Assembly: GCF_058153355.1 (NCBI RefSeq)
Contig: NZ_CM177019.1
Length of the DNA: 64,000 nt
Direction: 5' to 3' (one strand)
Shown: positions 22,652 to 27,199 of the stretch, in pieces
How the letters are laid out: every line of letters begins with the position of its first letter
Position numbering within the stretch: the stretch's first letter is position 1
Position numbers and translations under genes: made by a program
The notes under the pieces: generated by a model
What the model was told of the DNA's origin: nothing
Databases searched by the model: none
Seen by the model: only the letters and a program-made list of their open reading frames with translations

Positions 22652-25096
22652 ATGCCAACACCAAGCATCATCAAAACACTCGCCACTCACCGCGAAAAAC
22701 CGTTCGTCAGCGTCGTCACGCCAACCTGGAATCGTGGCGCATTTCTGCCGTACCTGCTCTATATGTACCGCTATCAGGACTACCCGGCAGACCACCGCGA
22801 ACTGGTCATCCTCGACGACTCACCGCAAAGCCATCAACACATCATCGACCGCCTGACCAATGGCACGCCGGAAGCCTTTAACATCCGCTACATCCATCAC
22901 CCGGAAAAACTGCCGCTGGGCAAAAAACGCAATATGCTCAACGAACTGGCGAGCGGCGAATACATCCTTTGCATGGACGATGACGACTATTACCCGGCAG
23001 ATAAAATCTCTTACACCATCGGCATGATGCAAAAACACCGGGCGCTGATCTCCGGTTCCGACCAGATCCCCATCTGGTACAGCCATATCAACCGCATCTT
23101 TCAAAGCCGCAGCTTTGGCCCGCATAACATCCTCAACGGCACCTTTTGCTATCACCGTAACTACCTGAAAAAGCACCACTACGATGATGATTGCAATTTA
23201 GGCGAAGAGAAAAGTTTCACCGACAATTTCAGTGTTAACCCGCTGCAACTGCCCGGCGAGCGCACGATTTTGTGTATCTCGCACAGCCACAACACCTTTG
23301 ATAAAGACTTTATTCTCGGGGCCAGCACGCCTGTAAATGCCGAACTGAGCGATATCGTCACCGATCCGCTGCTACGCAATGCTTATCTGAGTCTGCATAA
23401 CGCCACTCATCACCAGGCGATCAACCATCAGGCGATCGATCAGATAGTTGTTGTGAATCTGGATAAACGCCCGGATCGTTTACGGCAGATCCGTGAAGAG
23501 CTGGCATTGCTGCATATTCCGCCTGAAAAAATTACCCGCCTTGCCGCCTGTGAAGATGAAAACGGCCAACGGGGACGACGCCAGTCGCACTTGCAGGCGC
23601 TGCGCCTGGCGCAACAGCACGGCTGGCAAAATTACCTGCTGCTGGAAGATGACGCGGTTATTCTCAAGCAGGAGAAACATATTCAGGTACTGAACACGCT
23701 GCTGGCGAGCCTGGCGAAAATTCCCTGGGAGGTGATGAGCCTTGGTGGCGAAATTTCGCAAGGAACGATGCTGAAAAGTTTGCCGGGGCTGGTACACGCG
23801 CAGGACTGCCGCAAAGTGTGTGCTTATCTGGTGAACAGCCGCTACTACCCACAACTGGCGCAGCAGATGAGTAACGATGAGCACTCGCTGGAAGACGGCT
23901 GGCAGCCACTGCTGCGCACCGACAAATGGCTGGCCTGTTACCCGAGCCTTAGTTATCAGCGACCGGGCTTTAGTGATATCGAGAAAAAAGCGACTGATAA
24001 CATTAACCACTACTTCAATAAGTTACCCGTAGCCACCAAGCCATCCACATTACCCATCGCCGACACCATCGGCTTTTTTATGGAAACCTCCTTCCACTAC
24101 GCGCTCTATCGCCCAATCATCACCGCCCTACAGGCGCAGGGGCAGAGTTGCACGCTGGTGATCAACGATCGCGTGTTTAAACCATTTTTGGGTGAAATGC
24201 TGGAAACACTGAAAAGCATCGACGATCCACAGCTTAAAGGTATGCGCTTGTCTGAGATGCAGGAGCACAGTCAGCGGGTGAAATGCCTGGTCAGCCCCTA
24301 CCACACGCCCGCGCTCAATGGCATTTCACCCGTGAACGTTCGCGCCATGTACGGCTTAGCCAAAGAGACGTGGAACCACGCCGACTGGAACCGTTTTTAT
24401 CAGCGCATTTTGTGTTACAGCCACTACAGCCAGCAGGCACTAAAACATTTCGGTAGCGCAAAAGTGGTCGGCAACCCGCGCTTCGACGCCTGGCATAACG
24501 GCACGTTTGACCGCGCCCTGCCGGAAAATATCCAACCCGATTCCCGTAAACCTACGGTGCTCTACGCCCCCACGTTTGGCGCATTAAGCTCCCTGCCCCA
24601 CTGGGCAGAAAAATTGGGGCGCTTGAGCGGTAATGTAAACCTGATTTGCAAACTGCACCACGGCACCAGCTCGCGCCCGGAAGAAGCCGCATCGCTGACC
24701 CTGGCACGCAGGCATTTAAAACAGCGCACCGACTCCGTCCGCCACACGCTGGCGCTGCTGGCAAAGGCCGATTACGTGCTCACCGATAACAGCGGCTTTA
24801 TTTTCGATGCTATCCACGTTGATAAGCGGGTGATCCTGCTCGACTTTCCGGGCATGACGGAACTGCTCGACGGTGAGAAAAGTTATTCCACACCGGAGAG
24901 CGCCGACCAGCGAATCCGCGAAATATTACCGGTGGCTCATGATATGGCTGAGCTGCGTTACTTATTGTCAGAGGCGTTTGACTGGGGGGCGGAACAGGCG
25001 CGGCTTACGGAGATTCGCCATCACTATTGTGACGCGTTTATGGATGGCAAGGCGGGAGAACGGGCGGCGATGGCGATTGTGGAGGCATTGGGTTAA
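22652..25096 (+). CDS. Multi-domain glycosyltransferase: GT2-like N-terminal domain, GT25-like central domain, TagF-like CDP-glycerol glycerophosphotransferase C-terminal domain
   Basis: ATG at 22652 follows the palindromic element; GT-A motifs (VSVVTPTWNRG, DDDD), central VVVNLDKRPDR...LLEDDAVIL, C-terminal VLYAPTFG...VLTDNSGFIFDAI; the track ORF from 22418 runs through the repeat. Confidence 0.65.
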   Translation: MPTPSIIKTLATHREKPFVSVVTPTWNRGAFLPYLLYMYRYQDYPADHRELVILDDSPQSHQHIIDRLTNGTPEAFNIRYIHHPEKLPLGKKRNMLNELASGEYILCMDDDDYYPADKISYTIGMMQKHRALISGSDQIPIWYSHINRIFQSRSFGPHNILNGTFCYHRNYLKKHHYDDDCNLGEEKSFTDNFSVNPLQLPGERTILCISHSHNTFDKDFILGASTPVNAELSDIVTDPLLRNAYLSLHNATHHQAINHQAIDQIVVVNLDKRPDRLRQIREELALLHIPPEKITRLAACEDENGQRGRRQSHLQALRLAQQHGWQNYLLLEDDAVILKQEKHIQVLNTLLASLAKIPWEVMSLGGEISQGTMLKSLPGLVHAQDCRKVCAYLVNSRYYPQLAQQMSNDEHSLEDGWQPLLRTDKWLACYPSLSYQRPGFSDIEKKATDNINHYFNKLPVATKPSTLPIADTIGFFMETSFHYALYRPIITALQAQGQSCTLVINDRVFKPFLGEMLETLKSIDDPQLKGMRLSEMQEHSQRVKCLVSPYHTPALNGISPVNVRAMYGLAKETWNHADWNRFYQRILCYSHYSQQALKHFGSAKVVGNPRFDAWHNGTFDRALPENIQPDSRKPTVLYAPTFGALSSLPHWAEKLGRLSGNVNLICKLHHGTSSRPEEAASLTLARRHLKQRTDSVRHTLALLAKADYVLTDNSGFIFDAIHVDKRVILLDFPGMTELLDGEKSYSTPESADQRIREILPVAHDMAELRYLLSEAFDWGAEQARLTEIRHHYCDAFMDGKAGERAAMAIVEALG

Positions 25097-25108
25097 ACCA
25101 CAGAAGTG

Positions 25109-25205
25109 CCTGATGCGCTTCGCTTATCAGGCCTACTCGCCGCTGCAGTAGTTTGAATAAGTGATGATTTGTAGGCCGGATAAGGCGTTTACGCCGCATC
25201 CGGCA
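25109..25205. repeat. REP pair (BIME)
   Basis: gcctgatgcgcttcgcttatcaggcctac and tgtaggccggataaggcgtttacgccgcatccggca. Confidence 0.85.
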
Positions 25206-25422
25206 CGAACAGCGCACTTATCTACCCTTCGATTTTAAATACATCTCTTTATGGCTGGTGAATCGGTAAAGTCGTAGATTGTGGGGGAGCGATCTTTATG
25301 AATTCTGAAAAAAACCTGAATCTTGCTAAACATATTGCTTATCATAAATATAGGTTACACACTATAAAAATTACTGCGTAATTTAACATTTTGTCTAAAA
25401 ATGATAGAGCATAAACGATAAC

Positions 25423-26244: not shown

Positions 26245-26791
26245 CATTGTATTGAGAAGCATTGTATTGAGAAGCTTTATTTTATTATTCATAATAATAG
26301 TGTATCCGGATTATAATAAAAACCCACCTGCCTTTGAAGTATATGGGGAAAATGACATACTTAAGGATATGGTTATTAATATGAAAACTTATAGATACCA
26401 TAGTAGGGAAAACTCTTCCCCCACAGCTATAGTGCAAACCATCCTTTTTAAAGGAAATATACAGCAAGTTTTTGAAAGCAATGACATGGGTGGTGCGAGC
26501 TTCTTTTTTTCTTATAACAATAAGGTTGAAACGCTGGTAACAGACGCTTTCTTTTTAAATAAAAAATTAGACAAACTGCATGATGCAAATATTTTTGAGG
26601 TTATAAAGCATAAGGAAAACATCGTTATTAGATATTACAAGTGCAAAATTGAATATATGCAAAGAGAAAAATTTATCGAAATAGAGATATCAACAAACAA
26701 AAATAGTTATTTTAACAAGAATGGAATAAAACAAAAAGATACAAATAAATATAACACATATTTCTTCAATTACTTTGAGTCTCAAAAATAA
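26237..26791 (+). CDS. Hypothetical protein with hydrophobic N-terminus, AT-rich, coupled to the preceding ORF
   Basis: ~184-aa ORF (MISIVLRSIVLRSFILLFIIIVY...), 8-nt overlap with the upstream ORF; the track ORF begins at 26213. Confidence 0.45.
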   Translation: MISIVLRSIVLRSFILLFIIIVYPDYNKNPPAFEVYGENDILKDMVINMKTYRYHSRENSSPTAIVQTILFKGNIQQVFESNDMGGASFFFSYNNKVETLVTDAFFLNKKLDKLHDANIFEVIKHKENIVIRYYKCKIEYMQREKFIEIEISTNKNSYFNKNGIKQKDTNKYNTYFFNYFESQK

Positions 26792-26794
26792 ATT

Positions 26795-27199
26795 TTATTT
26801 TGTCATGCGCGCCCTCCTAATCACCTCAATAATCCCCGTCGTCGACACTGACGGCGTGCGGGGGAAATAGACCACCTCACAAATATACGCGAAGCTATCA
26901 AACTTCCCCGCCCAGTCATCGCCCATCACCAAAACATCCGCACTGTAACCGCGCAGATATTCCGCTTTCAGCGCCAGCGATTCCTCGAGAAATACGCCAT
27001 CCACGCACGCCAGCCCGGCGATAATCGCCATGCGGTCATCCTGAGGGTAAACCGGTGCCCTGCCCTTTTTAGCAATGTTCAGGGCGTCAGACGATACGCC
27101 GACCAGCAGCCGTTCGCCCAGCGTGCGGGCGCGTTGTAAAAGGAGCAGATGACCGACATGAAACACATCGAAGGTGCCGAAGGTGATGACCGTTTTCAT
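26795..27199 (-). CDS. Cytidylyltransferase, TagD-like (glycerol-3-phosphate cytidylyltransferase family)
   Basis: Start MKTVITFGTFDVFHVGH (HxGH nucleotidyltransferase motif); 2 nt after the FliJ-like stop, so probably co-transcribed with lafK-lfiEFGHIJ. Confidence 0.7.
   Translation of the reverse strand: MKTVITFGTFDVFHVGHLLLLQRARTLGERLLVGVSSDALNIAKKGRAPVYPQDDRMAIIAGLACVDGVFLEESLALKAEYLRGYSADVLVMGDDWAGKFDSFAYICEVVYFPRTPSVSTTGIIEVIRRARMTK

What the first reader, a model, noticed from the sequence alone, without database searches (positions are those of the whole stretch)
22652..27199. Putative glycerol-phosphate/glycan modification module inside the flagellar locus
An 815-aa protein combines GT2-like, GT25-like and TagF-like CDP-glycerol glycerophosphotransferase domains. 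A TagD-like cytidylyltransferase (which would make a CDP-activated donor such as CDP-glycerol) is translationally coupled to the end of the lafK-lfiEFGHIJ operon. Together they suggest flagellin or another flagellar component is modified with a glycan carrying glycerol-phosphate, which to my knowledge is uncharacterised for this locus.
Basis: inference. Interest (0 to 1): 0.65.

Follow-up and report, generated by a model that had tools for sequence, protein, structure and literature searches.

The report
Lateral-flagellin glycan glycerol-phosphate module
Inside a second (lateral) flagellar gene cluster of an Escherichia genome sit a three-domain sugar/phosphate transferase and a small CDP-donor-making enzyme. 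They most likely decorate the lateral flagellin with a sugar capped by glycerol-phosphate; the genes and this idea were already published in 2020, and the flagellar cluster in this genome is broken.

Summary
Window 22652-25096(+) encodes an 814-aa soluble protein with three domains:
- an N-terminal GT2 domain;
- a middle GT25-like GT-A domain;
- a C-terminal TagF-family (PF04464) CDP-alcohol phosphotransferase domain.

Window 26795-27199(-) encodes a 134-aa TagD-like cytidylyltransferase. It starts 2 nt after the lfiJ stop codon.

The two work as a pair. In 34 related loci, all 18 with the TagD-like gene carry a TagF-family partner: 14 fused, 3 split and 1 canonical. The flag-2 loci that kept the domain but lost TagD have lost its invariant residues.

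The most likely function is cytoplasmic O-glycosylation of lateral flagellin LafA, followed by a phosphodiester-linked glycerol-phosphate taken from CDP-glycerol. The mechanism resembles P. aeruginosa PA1091 and C. difficile FtaD. The donor identity is inferred only: TagD scores below NCBI's equivalog cut-off.

This is not new as a prediction. De Maayer et al. 2020 catalogued GT2-1 and TagD in flag-2 variable region 1 (VR1) and proposed teichoic-acid-like flagellin glycans. What is new here is the hidden GT25-like and TagF-like domains of GT2-1, and the covariation with TagD.

In this window the locus is defunct: lfgE-lfgJ are deleted and an IS110 element sits there.

Two low-GC ORFs inside the given coordinates are an unrelated, Escherichia-specific insertion.

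The parts
22652..25096 (+). 814-aa soluble three-domain transferase ('GT2-1' of De Maayer 2020): GT2 + GT25-like + TagF-like
   Evidence: ORF. RefSeq orthologue WP_012311637.1 'glycosyltransferase'. Orthologues occur in Escherichia, Pseudocitrobacter, Citrobacter, Enterobacter, Leminorella, Atlantibacter and Plesiomonas. No hydrophobic segment: maximum Kyte-Doolittle 19-residue mean is 1.14.
22700..23416 (+). GT2 (GT-A) domain, about aa 17-255. DDS 55-57 and DDDD 109-112 are invariant.
   Evidence: PF00535 E 4.8e-17, in 28 of 28 orthologues. Invariant columns. The model is poor here: pLDDT below 50 for residues 108-253.
23417..24034 (+). GT25-like second GT-A domain, about aa 256-461. Carries 'NLDxRxDR' and an invariant EDD 332-334.
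   Evidence: Foldseek top hits are human COLGALT1/GLT25D1, E 4e-12. PF01755 is found in the Plesiomonas orthologue P0085. There is no Pfam hit on the window protein itself.
24035..25093 (+). TagF-family (PF04464) CDP-alcohol phosphotransferase domain, aa 462-814. Motifs: MYGLAK 566-571, GNPRFD 607-612, YAPT 638-641, KLHH 667-670, LTDNSGFIFD 710-719.
   Evidence: PF04464 E 5.8e-4 on the isolated domain and 32 of 32 relatives. PDB profile hits Cps3D 2.1e-15 and TarL 2e-13. Foldseek hits TagF 3L7K and annotated glycerophosphotransferases. Y567, G607, P640, H669 and D712 are invariant in a 25-52% identity alignment.
26795..27199 (-). 134-aa TagD-like cytidylyltransferase (HxGH family), last gene of the lafK-lfiEFGHIJ transcription unit
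   Evidence: PF01467 E 1.6e-18. TIGR01518 scores 106.8 bits, below the 165.4 cut-off. 1COZ TagD E 1.3e-29, 46% identity. The start lies 2 nt after the lfiJ stop, with GGAG upstream.
27202..27636 (-). lfiJ (FliJ of the lateral system), immediately upstream of the TagD-like gene
   Evidence: RefSeq annotation of the orthologous gene; sequence junction.
21495..22463 (+). lafV, a FliB_C-like protein directly upstream of the transferase. It co-occurs with the transferase in most loci, including Burkholderia.
   Evidence: NF038110 FliB scores 37.8 bits, below the cut-off of 85. PF27117 FliB_C is found on neighbours' products. tblastn table.
10988..11902 (-). lafA, lateral flagellin (304 aa, 26% Ser+Thr): the presumed acceptor
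   Evidence: NF033376 LafA 666.8 bits; composition.
25423..26791 (+). Two overlapping low-GC (35-39%) ORFs of 273 aa and 192 aa.
   Evidence: GC profile. Present in E. coli SMS-3-5 but absent from Pseudocitrobacter loci, whose transferase is 92-94% identical. Only a weak DUF4347 hit at 2.4e-4. Nothing found in NCBIfam, PADLOC or PHROGs.

Best explanation
This is a two-gene glycan-modification module of the lateral (Flag-2) flagellar system.

**Proposed mechanism**
1. The 814-aa cytoplasmic enzyme uses its two GT-A domains (GT2 and GT25-like) to put one or two sugars O-linked on Ser/Thr of the lateral flagellin LafA before export.
2. Its C-terminal TagF-family domain then transfers a phospho-alcohol from a CDP-activated donor onto that glycan, forming a phosphodiester 'cap'.
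3. The donor is made by the adjacent TagD-like cytidylyltransferase from CTP and a common phospho-alcohol, most probably sn-glycerol-3-phosphate, giving CDP-glycerol. The predicted product is a glycerol-phosphate-bearing flagellin glycan.

**Shown here**
- The domain identities.
- The operon junction.
- The evolutionary coupling of the TagD-like gene with an intact TagF-like domain.
- The recurrent flagellar context.

**Inferred**
- The acceptor (LafA).
- The order of steps.
- The donor (glycerol-3-phosphate).
- A single cap rather than a polymer.

In this particular genome the module is intact, but the flagellar locus is not (lfgE-lfgJ are deleted), so here it is most likely an idle remnant.
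For: **Domains**
- GT2.
- GT25-like by fold and by orthologue Pfam hits.
- TagF family by Pfam, by PDB profile and by fold.
- TagD-like by Pfam, NCBIfam and PDB.

**Coupling**
- All 18 loci with the TagD-like gene carry a TagF-family partner: 14 fused, 3 as a separate gene of the same lineage, and 1 as a canonical PF04464 gene (E 4.4e-38).
- 12 loci without the TagF-like domain have no TagD.
- In flag-2 loci that keep the domain but lack TagD (Leminorella, C. freundii M-21), the invariant residues Y567, K571, T641, K667 and S714 are replaced; H669 is also replaced in C. freundii M-21 but retained in Leminorella.
- When the C-terminal domain is swapped for a Capsule_synth domain, TagD is absent.

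**Flagellin target**
- The module sits between lfiJ and lfgN, next to the FliB-like lafV.
- The short-form orthologue in Burkholderia sits in a cluster with a flagellin gene and a separate TagF-like gene.
- TagF-like relatives lie directly after flagellin genes in Firmicutes.
- The protein has no membrane segment, and LafA is 26% Ser+Thr.

**Precedents**
- P. aeruginosa PA1091 is a GT2 + phosphotransferase fusion needed for flagellin glycosylation (PMC11833859).
- C. difficile FtaD, a TagF-like enzyme, transfers a CDP-activated phospho-moiety onto O-GlcNAc flagellin peptides in vitro (bioRxiv 10.64898/2026.02.12.704994).

**Donor**
- The closest solved relative is TagD, at 46% identity over the full length.
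- No other precursor-making gene is conserved in the module. This favours a donor made directly from a central metabolite.
Against: - No mass-spectrometric or genetic data exist for any Flag-2 flagellin glycan. I found none in the searchable library. Flag-2 was not expressed in E. coli EC958 under the tested conditions.
- TagD-like scores below the curated glycerol-3-phosphate cytidylyltransferase cut-off (106.8 against 165.4 bits).
- As a subfamily it differs from TagD/TarD: KKGR replaces KQKK, W74 becomes L, R63 becomes K or A, and RTEGISTT becomes RTPSxSTT.
- The canonical first catalytic His motif of TagF enzymes ('WHG') appears to be replaced by an invariant Tyr ('MYG'). The catalytic chemistry is therefore not proven identical.
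- The Plesiomonas orthologue keeps all motifs without TagD and sits beside a different CDP-donor pathway. The domain is thus not tied to glycerol.
- The covariation test is not phylogenetically corrected.
- The locus in this window cannot build a hook, rod or rings.
Confidence: 0.5

Rival explanations
1. Same architecture and same target, but the donor is not CDP-glycerol. The TagD-like enzyme activates another small phospho-compound, for example another polyol phosphate, phosphoethanolamine or a phospho-amino acid. The cap on the flagellin glycan would then be that moiety.
For: - TIGR01518 scores below the cut-off.
- There are subfamily-specific substitutions at or near the phosphate-binding Lys pair and at W74.
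- The same HxGH fold serves ethanolamine-phosphate, choline-phosphate and phosphonate cytidylyltransferases.
- Relatives of the TagF-like domain sit beside threonine-type (Burkholderia), phosphoramidate-type (Plesiomonas) and phosphonate-type (Bacillus) donor pathways.
- FtaD uses CDP-N-methylthreonine.
Against: - The best solved match by a wide margin is TagD/TarD (E 1e-29 and 2e-25, against 1e-16 for the ethanolamine enzyme).
- CDD classed the family as cd02171 at E 4e-46 in De Maayer 2020.
- No extra precursor-biosynthesis gene is conserved beside it in Escherichia, Citrobacter or Enterobacter loci. The substrate should therefore be a standing metabolite, and glycerol-3-phosphate is one.
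Confidence: 0.2
2. The enzyme is a polymerase, not a capping enzyme. Like the multidomain TagF-like capsule polymerases (Cps3D, Cps7D), its GT and TagF-like domains alternate to build a poly(glycosyl-glycerol-phosphate), teichoic-acid-like chain on the flagellin. This is the reading suggested by De Maayer et al. 2020.
For: - The family profile's best solved hit is the TagF-like capsule polymerase Cps3D (2.1e-15), followed by the polymerase TarL.
- GT-A + TagF-like modular polymerases are documented (PMC8262930).
- De Maayer's proposal.
Against: - No TPR domain and no capsule-export context.
- The flagellin-associated precedents (PA1091, FtaD) add a single phospho-substituent per glycan.
- A long anionic polymer on a subunit that must pass the narrow flagellar export channel is hard to reconcile with cytoplasmic glycosylation. 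This point is inference.
- Sequence cannot separate primase-like from polymerase-like TagF enzymes.
Confidence: 0.15
3. The module acts on something other than flagellin, for example LPS core/O-antigen, capsule or another envelope glycan, and merely hitch-hikes in a recombination-prone variable region of the flagellar locus.
For: - VR1 is a hotspot for cargo genes, including non-flagellar ones.
- The low-GC ORFs beside the module are such cargo.
- GT2, GT25 and TagF families are best known from envelope glycan synthesis.
Against: - The TagD-like gene is translationally tied to lfiJ.
- The transferase-lafV pair is conserved from Enterobacterales to Burkholderia lateral-flagellar clusters.
- Relatives sit next to flagellin genes in unrelated phyla.
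- The protein has no membrane segment or lipid-carrier-associated partner (flippase, polymerase, ligase) nearby.
Confidence: 0.1

Closest known systems
P. aeruginosa PAO1 b-type flagellin system, PA1091 (FgtA) with PA1088-PA1090
   Same: - One polypeptide combines a GT2 glycosyltransferase with a TagF-like phosphotransferase.
- It is encoded in a flagellar region.
- Its product is an O-linked sugar carrying a phosphodiester-linked substituent delivered from a CDP-activated donor.
   Different: - The donor there is predicted to be CDP-N,N-dimethylthreonine, made with a CD0242/PA1090-type enzyme plus a methyltransferase and a further partner gene (PA1088-PA1090).
- Here the only partner is a TagD-family (HxGH) cytidylyltransferase.
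- There is an extra GT25-like domain here.
C. difficile Type A flagellin glycan pathway, FgtA (CD0240) + FtaABCD; FtaD = CDP-N-methylthreonine:GlcNAc phosphotransferase
   Same: A TagF-like enzyme acts on an O-glycosylated flagellin, not on a lipid-linked polymer, and takes the phospho-moiety from a CDP conjugate. This has been demonstrated in vitro.
   Different: - The proteins are separate there rather than a fusion.
- The donor pathway differs.
- The host is Gram-positive.
- Whether FtaD belongs to the same Tyr-containing subfamily was not tested.
Wall teichoic acid enzymes TagD/TarD + TagF/TagB/TarL (Bacillus, Staphylococcus)
   Same: - The same two enzyme families are used in the same order: CTP + glycerol-3-phosphate gives CDP-glycerol, then glycerol-phosphate is transferred.
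- TagD is 46% identical.
- The C-terminal half of the transferase domain is homologous to TarL.
   Different: - The acceptor there is a membrane lipid-linked polymer. Here the protein is soluble and sits in a flagellar locus.
- TagD-like is below the equivalog cut-off.
- The 'WHG' histidine motif is apparently replaced by 'MYG'.
TagF-like capsule polymerases of Gram-negative pathogens (Cps3D, Cps7D, Cps1B; Litschko/Fiebig)
   Same: - Modular fusion of a TagF-like domain with GT domains.
- Uses CDP-glycerol from a dedicated cytidylyltransferase in a Gram-negative organism.
- Best solved sequence hit (8qoy, 2.1e-15).
   Different: - Those enzymes are polymerases in kps-type capsule loci, often with TPR domains.
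- Their cytidylyltransferases are about 70% identical to TagD, against 46% here.
- There is no capsule context here.
Human collagen galactosyltransferase COLGALT1/GLT25D1 (GT25)
   Same: It is the best structural match for the N-terminal two-thirds: tandem GT-A domains, the second of GT25 type, in an enzyme that glycosylates a protein side chain.
   Different: - 11-13% identity, with high rmsd over the two-domain alignment.
- The acceptor there is hydroxylysine.
- In COLGALT1 the first GT-A domain is said to be non-catalytic (my recollection, not checked). Here both domains keep acidic DxD-type motifs.

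Membership tests
TagF-like CDP-alcohol phosphotransferases (Pfam PF04464 Glyphos_transf) | Significant match to the family profile | tested here: met
   E is 0.003 on the whole protein and 5.8e-4 on the isolated domain. 32 of 32 relatives match, best 1.4e-17. 10 of 28 full-length orthologues match at E<=0.001.
TagF-like CDP-alcohol phosphotransferases (Pfam PF04464 Glyphos_transf) | GT-B-like two-Rossmann fold similar to solved TagF | tested here: met
   3L7K matches at E 2.6e-9 with TMt 0.59, although UDP-GlcNAc 2-epimerases score equally. AFDB proteins annotated as glycerophosphotransferases match with TMt 0.8-0.9 and rmsd 2.4-3.9.
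TagF-like CDP-alcohol phosphotransferases (Pfam PF04464 Glyphos_transf) | C-terminal-half motifs including the second conserved His (K-x-H-P), GxPRxD, (Y)APT and TD(Y)SS | tested here: met
   GNPRFD 607-612, YAPT 638-641, KLHH 667-670 and LTDNSG 710-715 align to TarL and Cps3D. H669, G607, P640 and D712 are invariant.
TagF-like CDP-alcohol phosphotransferases (Pfam PF04464 Glyphos_transf) | First conserved catalytic His ('WHG' motif; H444 of S. epidermidis TagF, from memory of Lovering 2010 and Schertzer 2005) | tested here: inconclusive
   A canonical flag-2 TagB-like protein has 'QLWHGVSVK'. The equivalent strand-end in this family reads 'RAMYGLAK' with Y567 invariant, while the nearby H576 is not conserved. 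HMMER and hhalign did not align the N-terminal halves. A residue-level structural superposition was not available.
TagF-like CDP-alcohol phosphotransferases (Pfam PF04464 Glyphos_transf) | Transfers a phospho-alcohol from a CDP donor | not testable with these tools
   Needs an enzyme assay. There is indirect support from covariation with the cytidylyltransferase.
Glycerol-3-phosphate cytidylyltransferase TagD/TarD (TIGR01518; cd02171) | HxGH nucleotide-binding motif | tested here: met
   H14-V-G-H17 is conserved in all 19 flag-2 sequences.
Glycerol-3-phosphate cytidylyltransferase TagD/TarD (TIGR01518; cd02171) | RTxGISTT motif | tested here: met
   The motif reads RTPSVSTT. R, T and STT are kept, while G-I is replaced by S-V/I across the subfamily.
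Glycerol-3-phosphate cytidylyltransferase TagD/TarD (TIGR01518; cd02171) | Lys44 and Lys46 contacting the phosphates of CDP-glycerol (PMC8262930, citing Pattridge 2003) | tested here: inconclusive
   K44 is kept. The stretch is KKGR with a one-residue insertion, so K46 aligns either to G46 (HMMER) or to R47 (MAFFT).
Glycerol-3-phosphate cytidylyltransferase TagD/TarD (TIGR01518; cd02171) | Score above the curated equivalog cut-off | tested here: not met
   106.8 bits against a cut-off of 165.4. RefSeq names it only 'adenylyltransferase/cytidyltransferase family protein' or 'FAD synthase family protein'.
Glycerol-3-phosphate cytidylyltransferase TagD/TarD (TIGR01518; cd02171) | Closest solved relative is TagD, over the full length | tested here: met
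   1COZ E 1.3e-29 over residues 1-127, 46% identity; 2B7L E 2e-25. The next family, ethanolamine-phosphate cytidylyltransferase, scores 1.4e-16.
Glycosyltransferase family 25 | Match to PF01755 | tested here: not met
   No hit at E<=10 on the window protein. Only 1 of 28 orthologues matches at E<=0.001 (5.4e-6). 'GT25-like' is therefore a fold-level statement.
Glycosyltransferase family 25 | GT-A fold closest to a solved GT25 enzyme, with an acidic DxD-type motif | tested here: met
   COLGALT1 9evj E 4.4e-12. E332-D333-D334 are invariant.
Glycosyltransferase family 2 | Match to PF00535 and a DxD motif | tested here: met
   E 4.8e-17. D109-D112 and D55-D56-S57 are invariant.
PA1091/FgtA-type flagellin glycosyltransferase-phosphotransferase fusions | GT2 and TagF-like phosphotransferase in one protein, encoded in a flagellar locus | tested here: met
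   architecture as described in PMC11833859.
PA1091/FgtA-type flagellin glycosyltransferase-phosphotransferase fusions | Partner genes for a CDP-(methyl)threonine donor (CD0242/PA1090-type enzyme, its partner gene, methyltransferase) | tested here: not met
   None of these are in the window's VR1; a TagD-family gene is there instead. A similar-looking set (HAD hydrolase, IspD-like nucleotidyltransferase, methyltransferase) is present in the Burkholderia locus L006.
PA1091/FgtA-type flagellin glycosyltransferase-phosphotransferase fusions | Flagellin carries an O-glycan with a phosphodiester substituent | not testable with these tools
   Needs mass spectrometry of LafA.

The most novel reading that the evidence does not exclude
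The C-terminal domain belongs to a distinct, widespread subfamily of TagF-like enzymes in which an invariant Tyr sits where the canonical 'WHG' histidine is expected. Members recur next to flagellin genes in Enterobacterales, Burkholderia and Firmicutes. They would act as general 'phospho-cappers' of flagellin glycans, with the cap dictated by whichever CDP/CMP-donor pathway lies beside them: glycerol here, and threonine-, phosphoramidate- or phosphonate-type donors elsewhere. Escherichia lateral flagellin would then be the first protein shown to carry a glycerol-phosphate-capped O-glycan. A bolder extension follows from the COLGALT1-like tandem GT-A module and its constant FliB-like neighbour LafV: the glycan might be attached to a modified lysine rather than to Ser/Thr.
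Probability: 0.2. Interest if true: 0.6.

Novelty: new variant of a known kind. Interest (0 to 1): 0.35.

Why it matters
If confirmed, glycerol-phosphate would join N-methylthreonine-phosphate as a phosphodiester 'post-glycosylation modification' of flagellin. It would also show that Gram-negative lateral flagella borrow the teichoic-acid donor chemistry.

The practical gains of this check are modest but concrete:
- It explains why 235 flag-2 loci were reported with TagD but only 65 with a TagB-type transferase. The missing transferase is the unrecognised C-terminal domain of 'GT2-1'.
- It gives point-mutation targets: Y567, H669, D712, DDDD 109-112 and EDD 332-334.
- It supplies natural 'dead-domain' controls (Leminorella, C. 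freundii M-21).

The module has no expected phenotype in the genome this window comes from, because that flagellar locus is broken.

Tried and rejected
- **892-aa ORF from 22418.** Rejected as the gene. Its first 78 codons translate an intergenic repeat that matches nearly every E. coli genome.
- **Sequence mapping of the first catalytic His.**
  - hhalign of the domain profile against single canonical sequences (L006 and L025 proteins) gave probabilities of only 6-11% and covered mainly or only the C-terminal half.
  - phmmer of the Burkholderia TagF-like protein against the PDB found nothing.
  - The first 8-sequence profile hit TarL only at E 0.0038. This was solved for the C-terminal half by building a deeper profile.
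- **Direct comparison with PA1091 or FtaD.** Their sequences could not be obtained. PA1091 was not in the top 50 AFDB50 matches nor among the named cluster members checked.
- **Ren et al. 2005 Flag-2 paper (PMC545627).** It is not held in the library.
- **The two low-GC ORFs.** There were no hits in NCBIfam, PADLOC or PHROGs, and only a weak DUF4347 hit. I considered them as module members and rejected this, because closely related Pseudocitrobacter loci lack them.
- **CpgD (CDP-glycerate) as a model for an alternative TagD substrate.** Rejected: CpgD is not homologous to TagD.
- **The apparent exception L025 (TagD without the TagF-like domain).** It dissolved on inspection: the next gene is a canonical PF04464 protein.

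Full report
**1. What is in the window**

The window is an Escherichia chromosome segment carrying the Flag-2 (lateral flagella) locus.
- Flanking housekeeping genes (fadE, yafV, dpaA) are 96-98% identical to E. coli.
- The region 22000-28000 matches 144 of 5426 complete E. coli genomes over at least 80% of its length, at up to 95.9% identity.
- Alignment with E. coli SMS-3-5 and family searches give the gene order below.

| Gene | Coordinates | Strand |
|---|---|---|
| lfgB, lfgC, lfgD | 18308-19766 | - |
| lfgA | 19872-20609 | + |
| lfgM | 20631-20966 | + |
| lfgN | 20979-21407 | + |
| lafV (FliB_C-like) | 21495-22463 | + |
| large transferase | 22652-25096 | + |
| two low-GC ORFs | 25423-26791 | + |
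| TagD-like gene | 26795-27199 | - |
| lfiJ | 27202-27636 | - |
| lfiI and the rest of the operon, back to lafK | from 27639 | - |

This places the finding in 'variable region 1' (VR1) of the flag-2 locus, between lfiJ and lfgN.

**2. Check of the observation**

*The large protein*
- It is 814 aa. The listed 892-aa ORF begins inside an inverted-repeat element in the lafV-transferase spacer. That element matches almost every E. coli genome.
- Pfam finds GT2 at aa 20-189 (E 4.8e-17). It finds only a weak PF04464 match at aa 605-728 (E 0.003) and no GT25 hit.

*Deeper tests on the other two domains*
- Among 28 full-length orthologues at 38-93% identity, PF04464 is significant in 10 and PF01755 (GT25) in one.
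- The AlphaFold model has mean pLDDT 72. It is good for aa 260-430 and 470-814 and poor for aa 108-253.
- Its best solved matches are the tandem GT-A human GT25 enzyme COLGALT1 (E 4e-12) and, for the C-terminal domain, TagF 3L7K (E 2.6e-9).
- In AFDB50 the C-terminal domain superposes on about 360-aa proteins annotated as CDP-glycerol glycerophosphotransferases, with TM 0.8-0.9 and 25-32% identity.
- A library-wide profile search found 2145 relatives.
- All 32 members of a 25-52%-identity alignment match PF04464, including the window's isolated domain at 5.8e-4.
- The profile of that alignment hits the TagF-like capsule polymerase Cps3D (2.1e-15) and the teichoic acid polymerase TarL (2e-13) in the PDB.

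*The small protein*
- It is a CTP_transf_like protein (E 1.6e-18).
- It is 46% identical over its whole length to B. subtilis TagD.
- Its ATG lies 2 nt after the lfiJ stop codon, with GGAG inside the end of lfiJ.

**3. Do the two genes work together?**

I fetched 30 loci encoding relatives of the transferase from species-representative genomes and several more by exact look-up. I then scored each locus for every part of the module. Thirty-four loci were informative.

| TagD-like gene | TagF-family partner | Loci |
|---|---|---|
| present | fused to the transferase | 14 |
| present | separate gene of the same lineage (Erwinia, E. wuhouensis) | 3 |
| present | canonical PF04464 gene (E 4.4e-38) | 1 |
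| absent | no TagF-like domain | 12 |
| absent | domain retained | 4 |

- All 18 loci with the TagD-like gene therefore carry a TagF-family partner.
- Among the twelve loci with neither are variants in which the C-terminal domain is missing or is swapped for a Capsule_synth domain.
- Of the four loci that keep the domain without TagD, three are flag-2 loci: Leminorella (two loci) and C. freundii M-21. They have lost residues that are otherwise invariant: Y567, K571, T641, K667 and S714, plus H669 in C. freundii M-21 only.
- The fourth, Plesiomonas, keeps every motif. It lies beside an NTP-transferase, a glutamine-amidotransferase-like gene and a PEP-utilising enzyme. From memory, this set recalls the C. 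jejuni phosphoramidate (CDP-amidate) pathway.
- The 2x2 association gives Fisher p = 3e-6. The test is not corrected for phylogeny. The independent fusion, fission and decay events make the coupling convincing all the same.

**4. What it most likely does**

The protein has no membrane segment, and LafA is 26% Ser+Thr.

*Context*
- The transferase-lafV pair recurs in a Burkholderia oklahomensis cluster. There it is followed by a methyltransferase, a HAD hydrolase, an IspD-like nucleotidyltransferase, a separate TagF-like gene, a flagellin gene and motA.
- Relatives of the TagF-like domain lie immediately after flagellin genes in a metagenomic contig of probable Firmicute origin, in Clostridium taeniosporum and in a Bacillus.

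*Characterised precedents*
- P. aeruginosa PA1091 is a GT2-phosphotransferase fusion without which flagellin is unglycosylated (PMC11833859).
- C. difficile FtaD, a TagF-like enzyme, transfers N-methylthreonine-phosphate from a CDP conjugate onto O-GlcNAc flagellin peptides in vitro (bioRxiv 10.64898/2026.02.12.704994).

*Proposed mechanism*
1. The two GT-A domains glycosylate LafA in the cytoplasm.
2. The TagF-like domain adds a phosphodiester-linked cap from a CDP donor.
3. The TagD-like enzyme makes that donor.

*Why glycerol-phosphate is favoured*
- TagD is by far the closest solved relative.
- No other precursor-making gene is conserved in the module.

*Why it is not shown*
- The protein scores 106.8 bits against the 165.4-bit equivalog cut-off.
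- It forms a subfamily with KKGR for KQKK, L for W74 and RTPSxSTT for RTEGISTT.

**5. A point about the catalytic site**

- A canonical flag-2 TagB-like protein carries 'QLWHGVSVK' about 60 residues before GYPRNE.
- The corresponding strand-end in this family reads 'RAMYGLAK', 43 residues before GNPRFD.
- Y567 is invariant across the deep alignment, whereas the nearby H576 is not conserved.
- The second conserved His (K-x-H, H669) is invariant and aligns with the KxHP motif of TarL and the equivalent His motif of Cps3D.
- The Tyr-for-His reading is an inference from motif spacing and predicted secondary structure. The tools gave no residue-level superposition.

**6. What is already known**

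- De Maayer, Pillay and Coutinho (BMC Genomics 2020; PMC6993521) described VR1.
- They listed GT2-1 (mean 828 aa, 222 strains, annotated only as pfam00535), GT2-3 (474 aa, the short form), TagD (133 aa, 235 strains, cd02171 E 4e-46), TagB1-8 (65 strains) and LafV.
- They proposed that teichoic-acid-type glycopolymers form part of the flag-2 flagellin glycan.
- I found no experimental work on any Flag-2 flagellin glycan in the searchable library. Flag-2 was not expressed in E. coli EC958 under the conditions tested.
- New here are the recognition of the GT25-like and TagF-like domains inside GT2-1, which supplies the 'missing' transferase for most TagD-bearing loci, and the covariation and decay evidence.

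**7. State of the locus in this window**

- E. coli SMS-3-5 positions covering lfgE-lfgJ (hook, rods, L and P rings) have no match anywhere in the window.
- An IS110-family element (17092-18072, -) lies between lfgD and lfgK.
- A second copy of the IS110 transposase gene, with identical family-search scores, lies between lafA and lafB (9852-10832, +). With 300 bp of flank included, the two copies match at 1380 of 1581 positions.
- Both module genes are full length. Without a hook, rods and rings no lateral flagellum can be built, so the module is most likely idle in this strain.

**8. Verdict**

- The system is a variant of the known flagellin 'glycosyltransferase plus TagF-like phosphotransferase' kind, with a TagD-family donor enzyme and an extra GT25-like domain.
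- Interest is moderate to low. It would rise if mass spectrometry showed a glycerol-phosphate-capped flagellin glycan, or if the Tyr-containing TagF-like subfamily proved to be a general flagellin phospho-capping family.

Noticed in passing
window 9852-10832 (+) and 17092-18072 (-); lfgD 18308-19021, lfgK 15473-16849: Two copies of an IS110-family element with identical family-search scores. One sits where lfgE-lfgJ should be, and those genes are absent from the whole window. The other sits between lafA and lafB (fliD-like). The Flag-2 locus is therefore degraded in this genome.
   Followed up: yes
window 25423-26244 (+) and 26213-26791 (+): Two overlapping low-GC (35-39%) ORFs of 273 aa and 192 aa. 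The second has a hydrophobic N-terminal stretch. They lie between the transferase and the TagD-like gene. They are present in E. coli SMS-3-5 but absent from Pseudocitrobacter loci with a 92-94% identical transferase. The only family signal is a weak DUF4347 hit (E 2.4e-4). Function is unknown; this is probably a horizontally acquired insertion.
   Followed up: partly
window 22464-22651: An inverted-repeat intergenic element ('...CCCCTCACCCTAACCCTCTCTCC...GGGAGAGGGCCGGGGTGAGGGG...') lies between lafV and the transferase. Copies of it explain why 5425 of 5426 E. coli genomes matched the query. It also creates a spurious 78-codon N-terminal extension of the ORF.
   Followed up: partly
L002 8001-15618 (Plesiomonas sp. 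MAG): The 841-aa orthologue keeps all TagF-like motifs but has no TagD neighbour. Beside it are an NTP_transferase, a Peptidase_C26/GATase and a 1011-aa PPDK_N/PEP-utiliser protein. From memory, this set resembles the C. jejuni Cj1416-Cj1418 phosphoramidate pathway and hints at a different cap on the glycan. motAB and a sigma factor gene are nearby.
   Followed up: no
L006 6001-12617 (Burkholderia oklahomensis): The short (490-aa) GT2+GT25-like orthologue is followed by a FliB_C protein, a methyltransferase, a HAD hydrolase, an IspD-like nucleotidyltransferase, a separate TagF-like protein and a flagellin gene. The gene set looks like the P. aeruginosa PA1088-91 / C. difficile ftaABCD phospho-(methyl)threonine module, placed in a lateral-type flagellar cluster.
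   Followed up: partly
L041 8001-17501 (Bacillus sp. FJAT-50079): A 1024-aa GT2-TPR-TagF-like fusion lies directly after a flagellin gene. Downstream are a PEP-mutase fused to a CTP_transf_like domain, a TPP enzyme and an Fe-alcohol dehydrogenase. This suggests a phosphonate-type cap on a flagellin glycan.
   Followed up: no
L004/L016 (Leminorella grimontii) and L017 (Citrobacter freundii M-21), C-terminal third of the transferase gene: The TagF-like domain is retained at 40-41% identity but has lost the family's invariant residues (Y567P/A, K571N/R, K667L/V, S714D/R; H669Q in L017 only). These loci lack the TagD-like gene, and Leminorella has a small GT25 gene next to lfiJ instead. These are apparent natural pseudo-enzyme domains.
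   Followed up: yes
L003 8001-12052 (probable Citrobacter contig): A variant of the transferase in which the C-terminal TagF-like domain is replaced by a Capsule_synth (PF05159, KpsC/KpsS-like) domain. It is accompanied by a hexapeptide acyltransferase and a small GT25 gene, and there is no TagD. This is domain swapping within one orthologous gene slot.
   Followed up: partly
window 21495-22463 and loci L003-L035: The FliB_C-like lafV gene accompanies the GT2+GT25-like transferase in nearly all loci, including Burkholderia. The transferase's best structural match is a lysine-side-chain (hydroxylysine) glycosyltransferase. LafA has only 6 Lys. Whether LafV and the transferase are functionally linked is open.
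   Followed up: no
window 49000-62718: A low-GC region with strongly negative GC skew. It holds a group II intron reverse transcriptase/maturase (51684-53105, -), IS21 istA/istB (53154-55123, -), a T6SS VgrG (60682-62718, -) and five downstream ORFs without family hits (56047-60660, -). These are presumably VgrG-associated cargo.
   Followed up: partly
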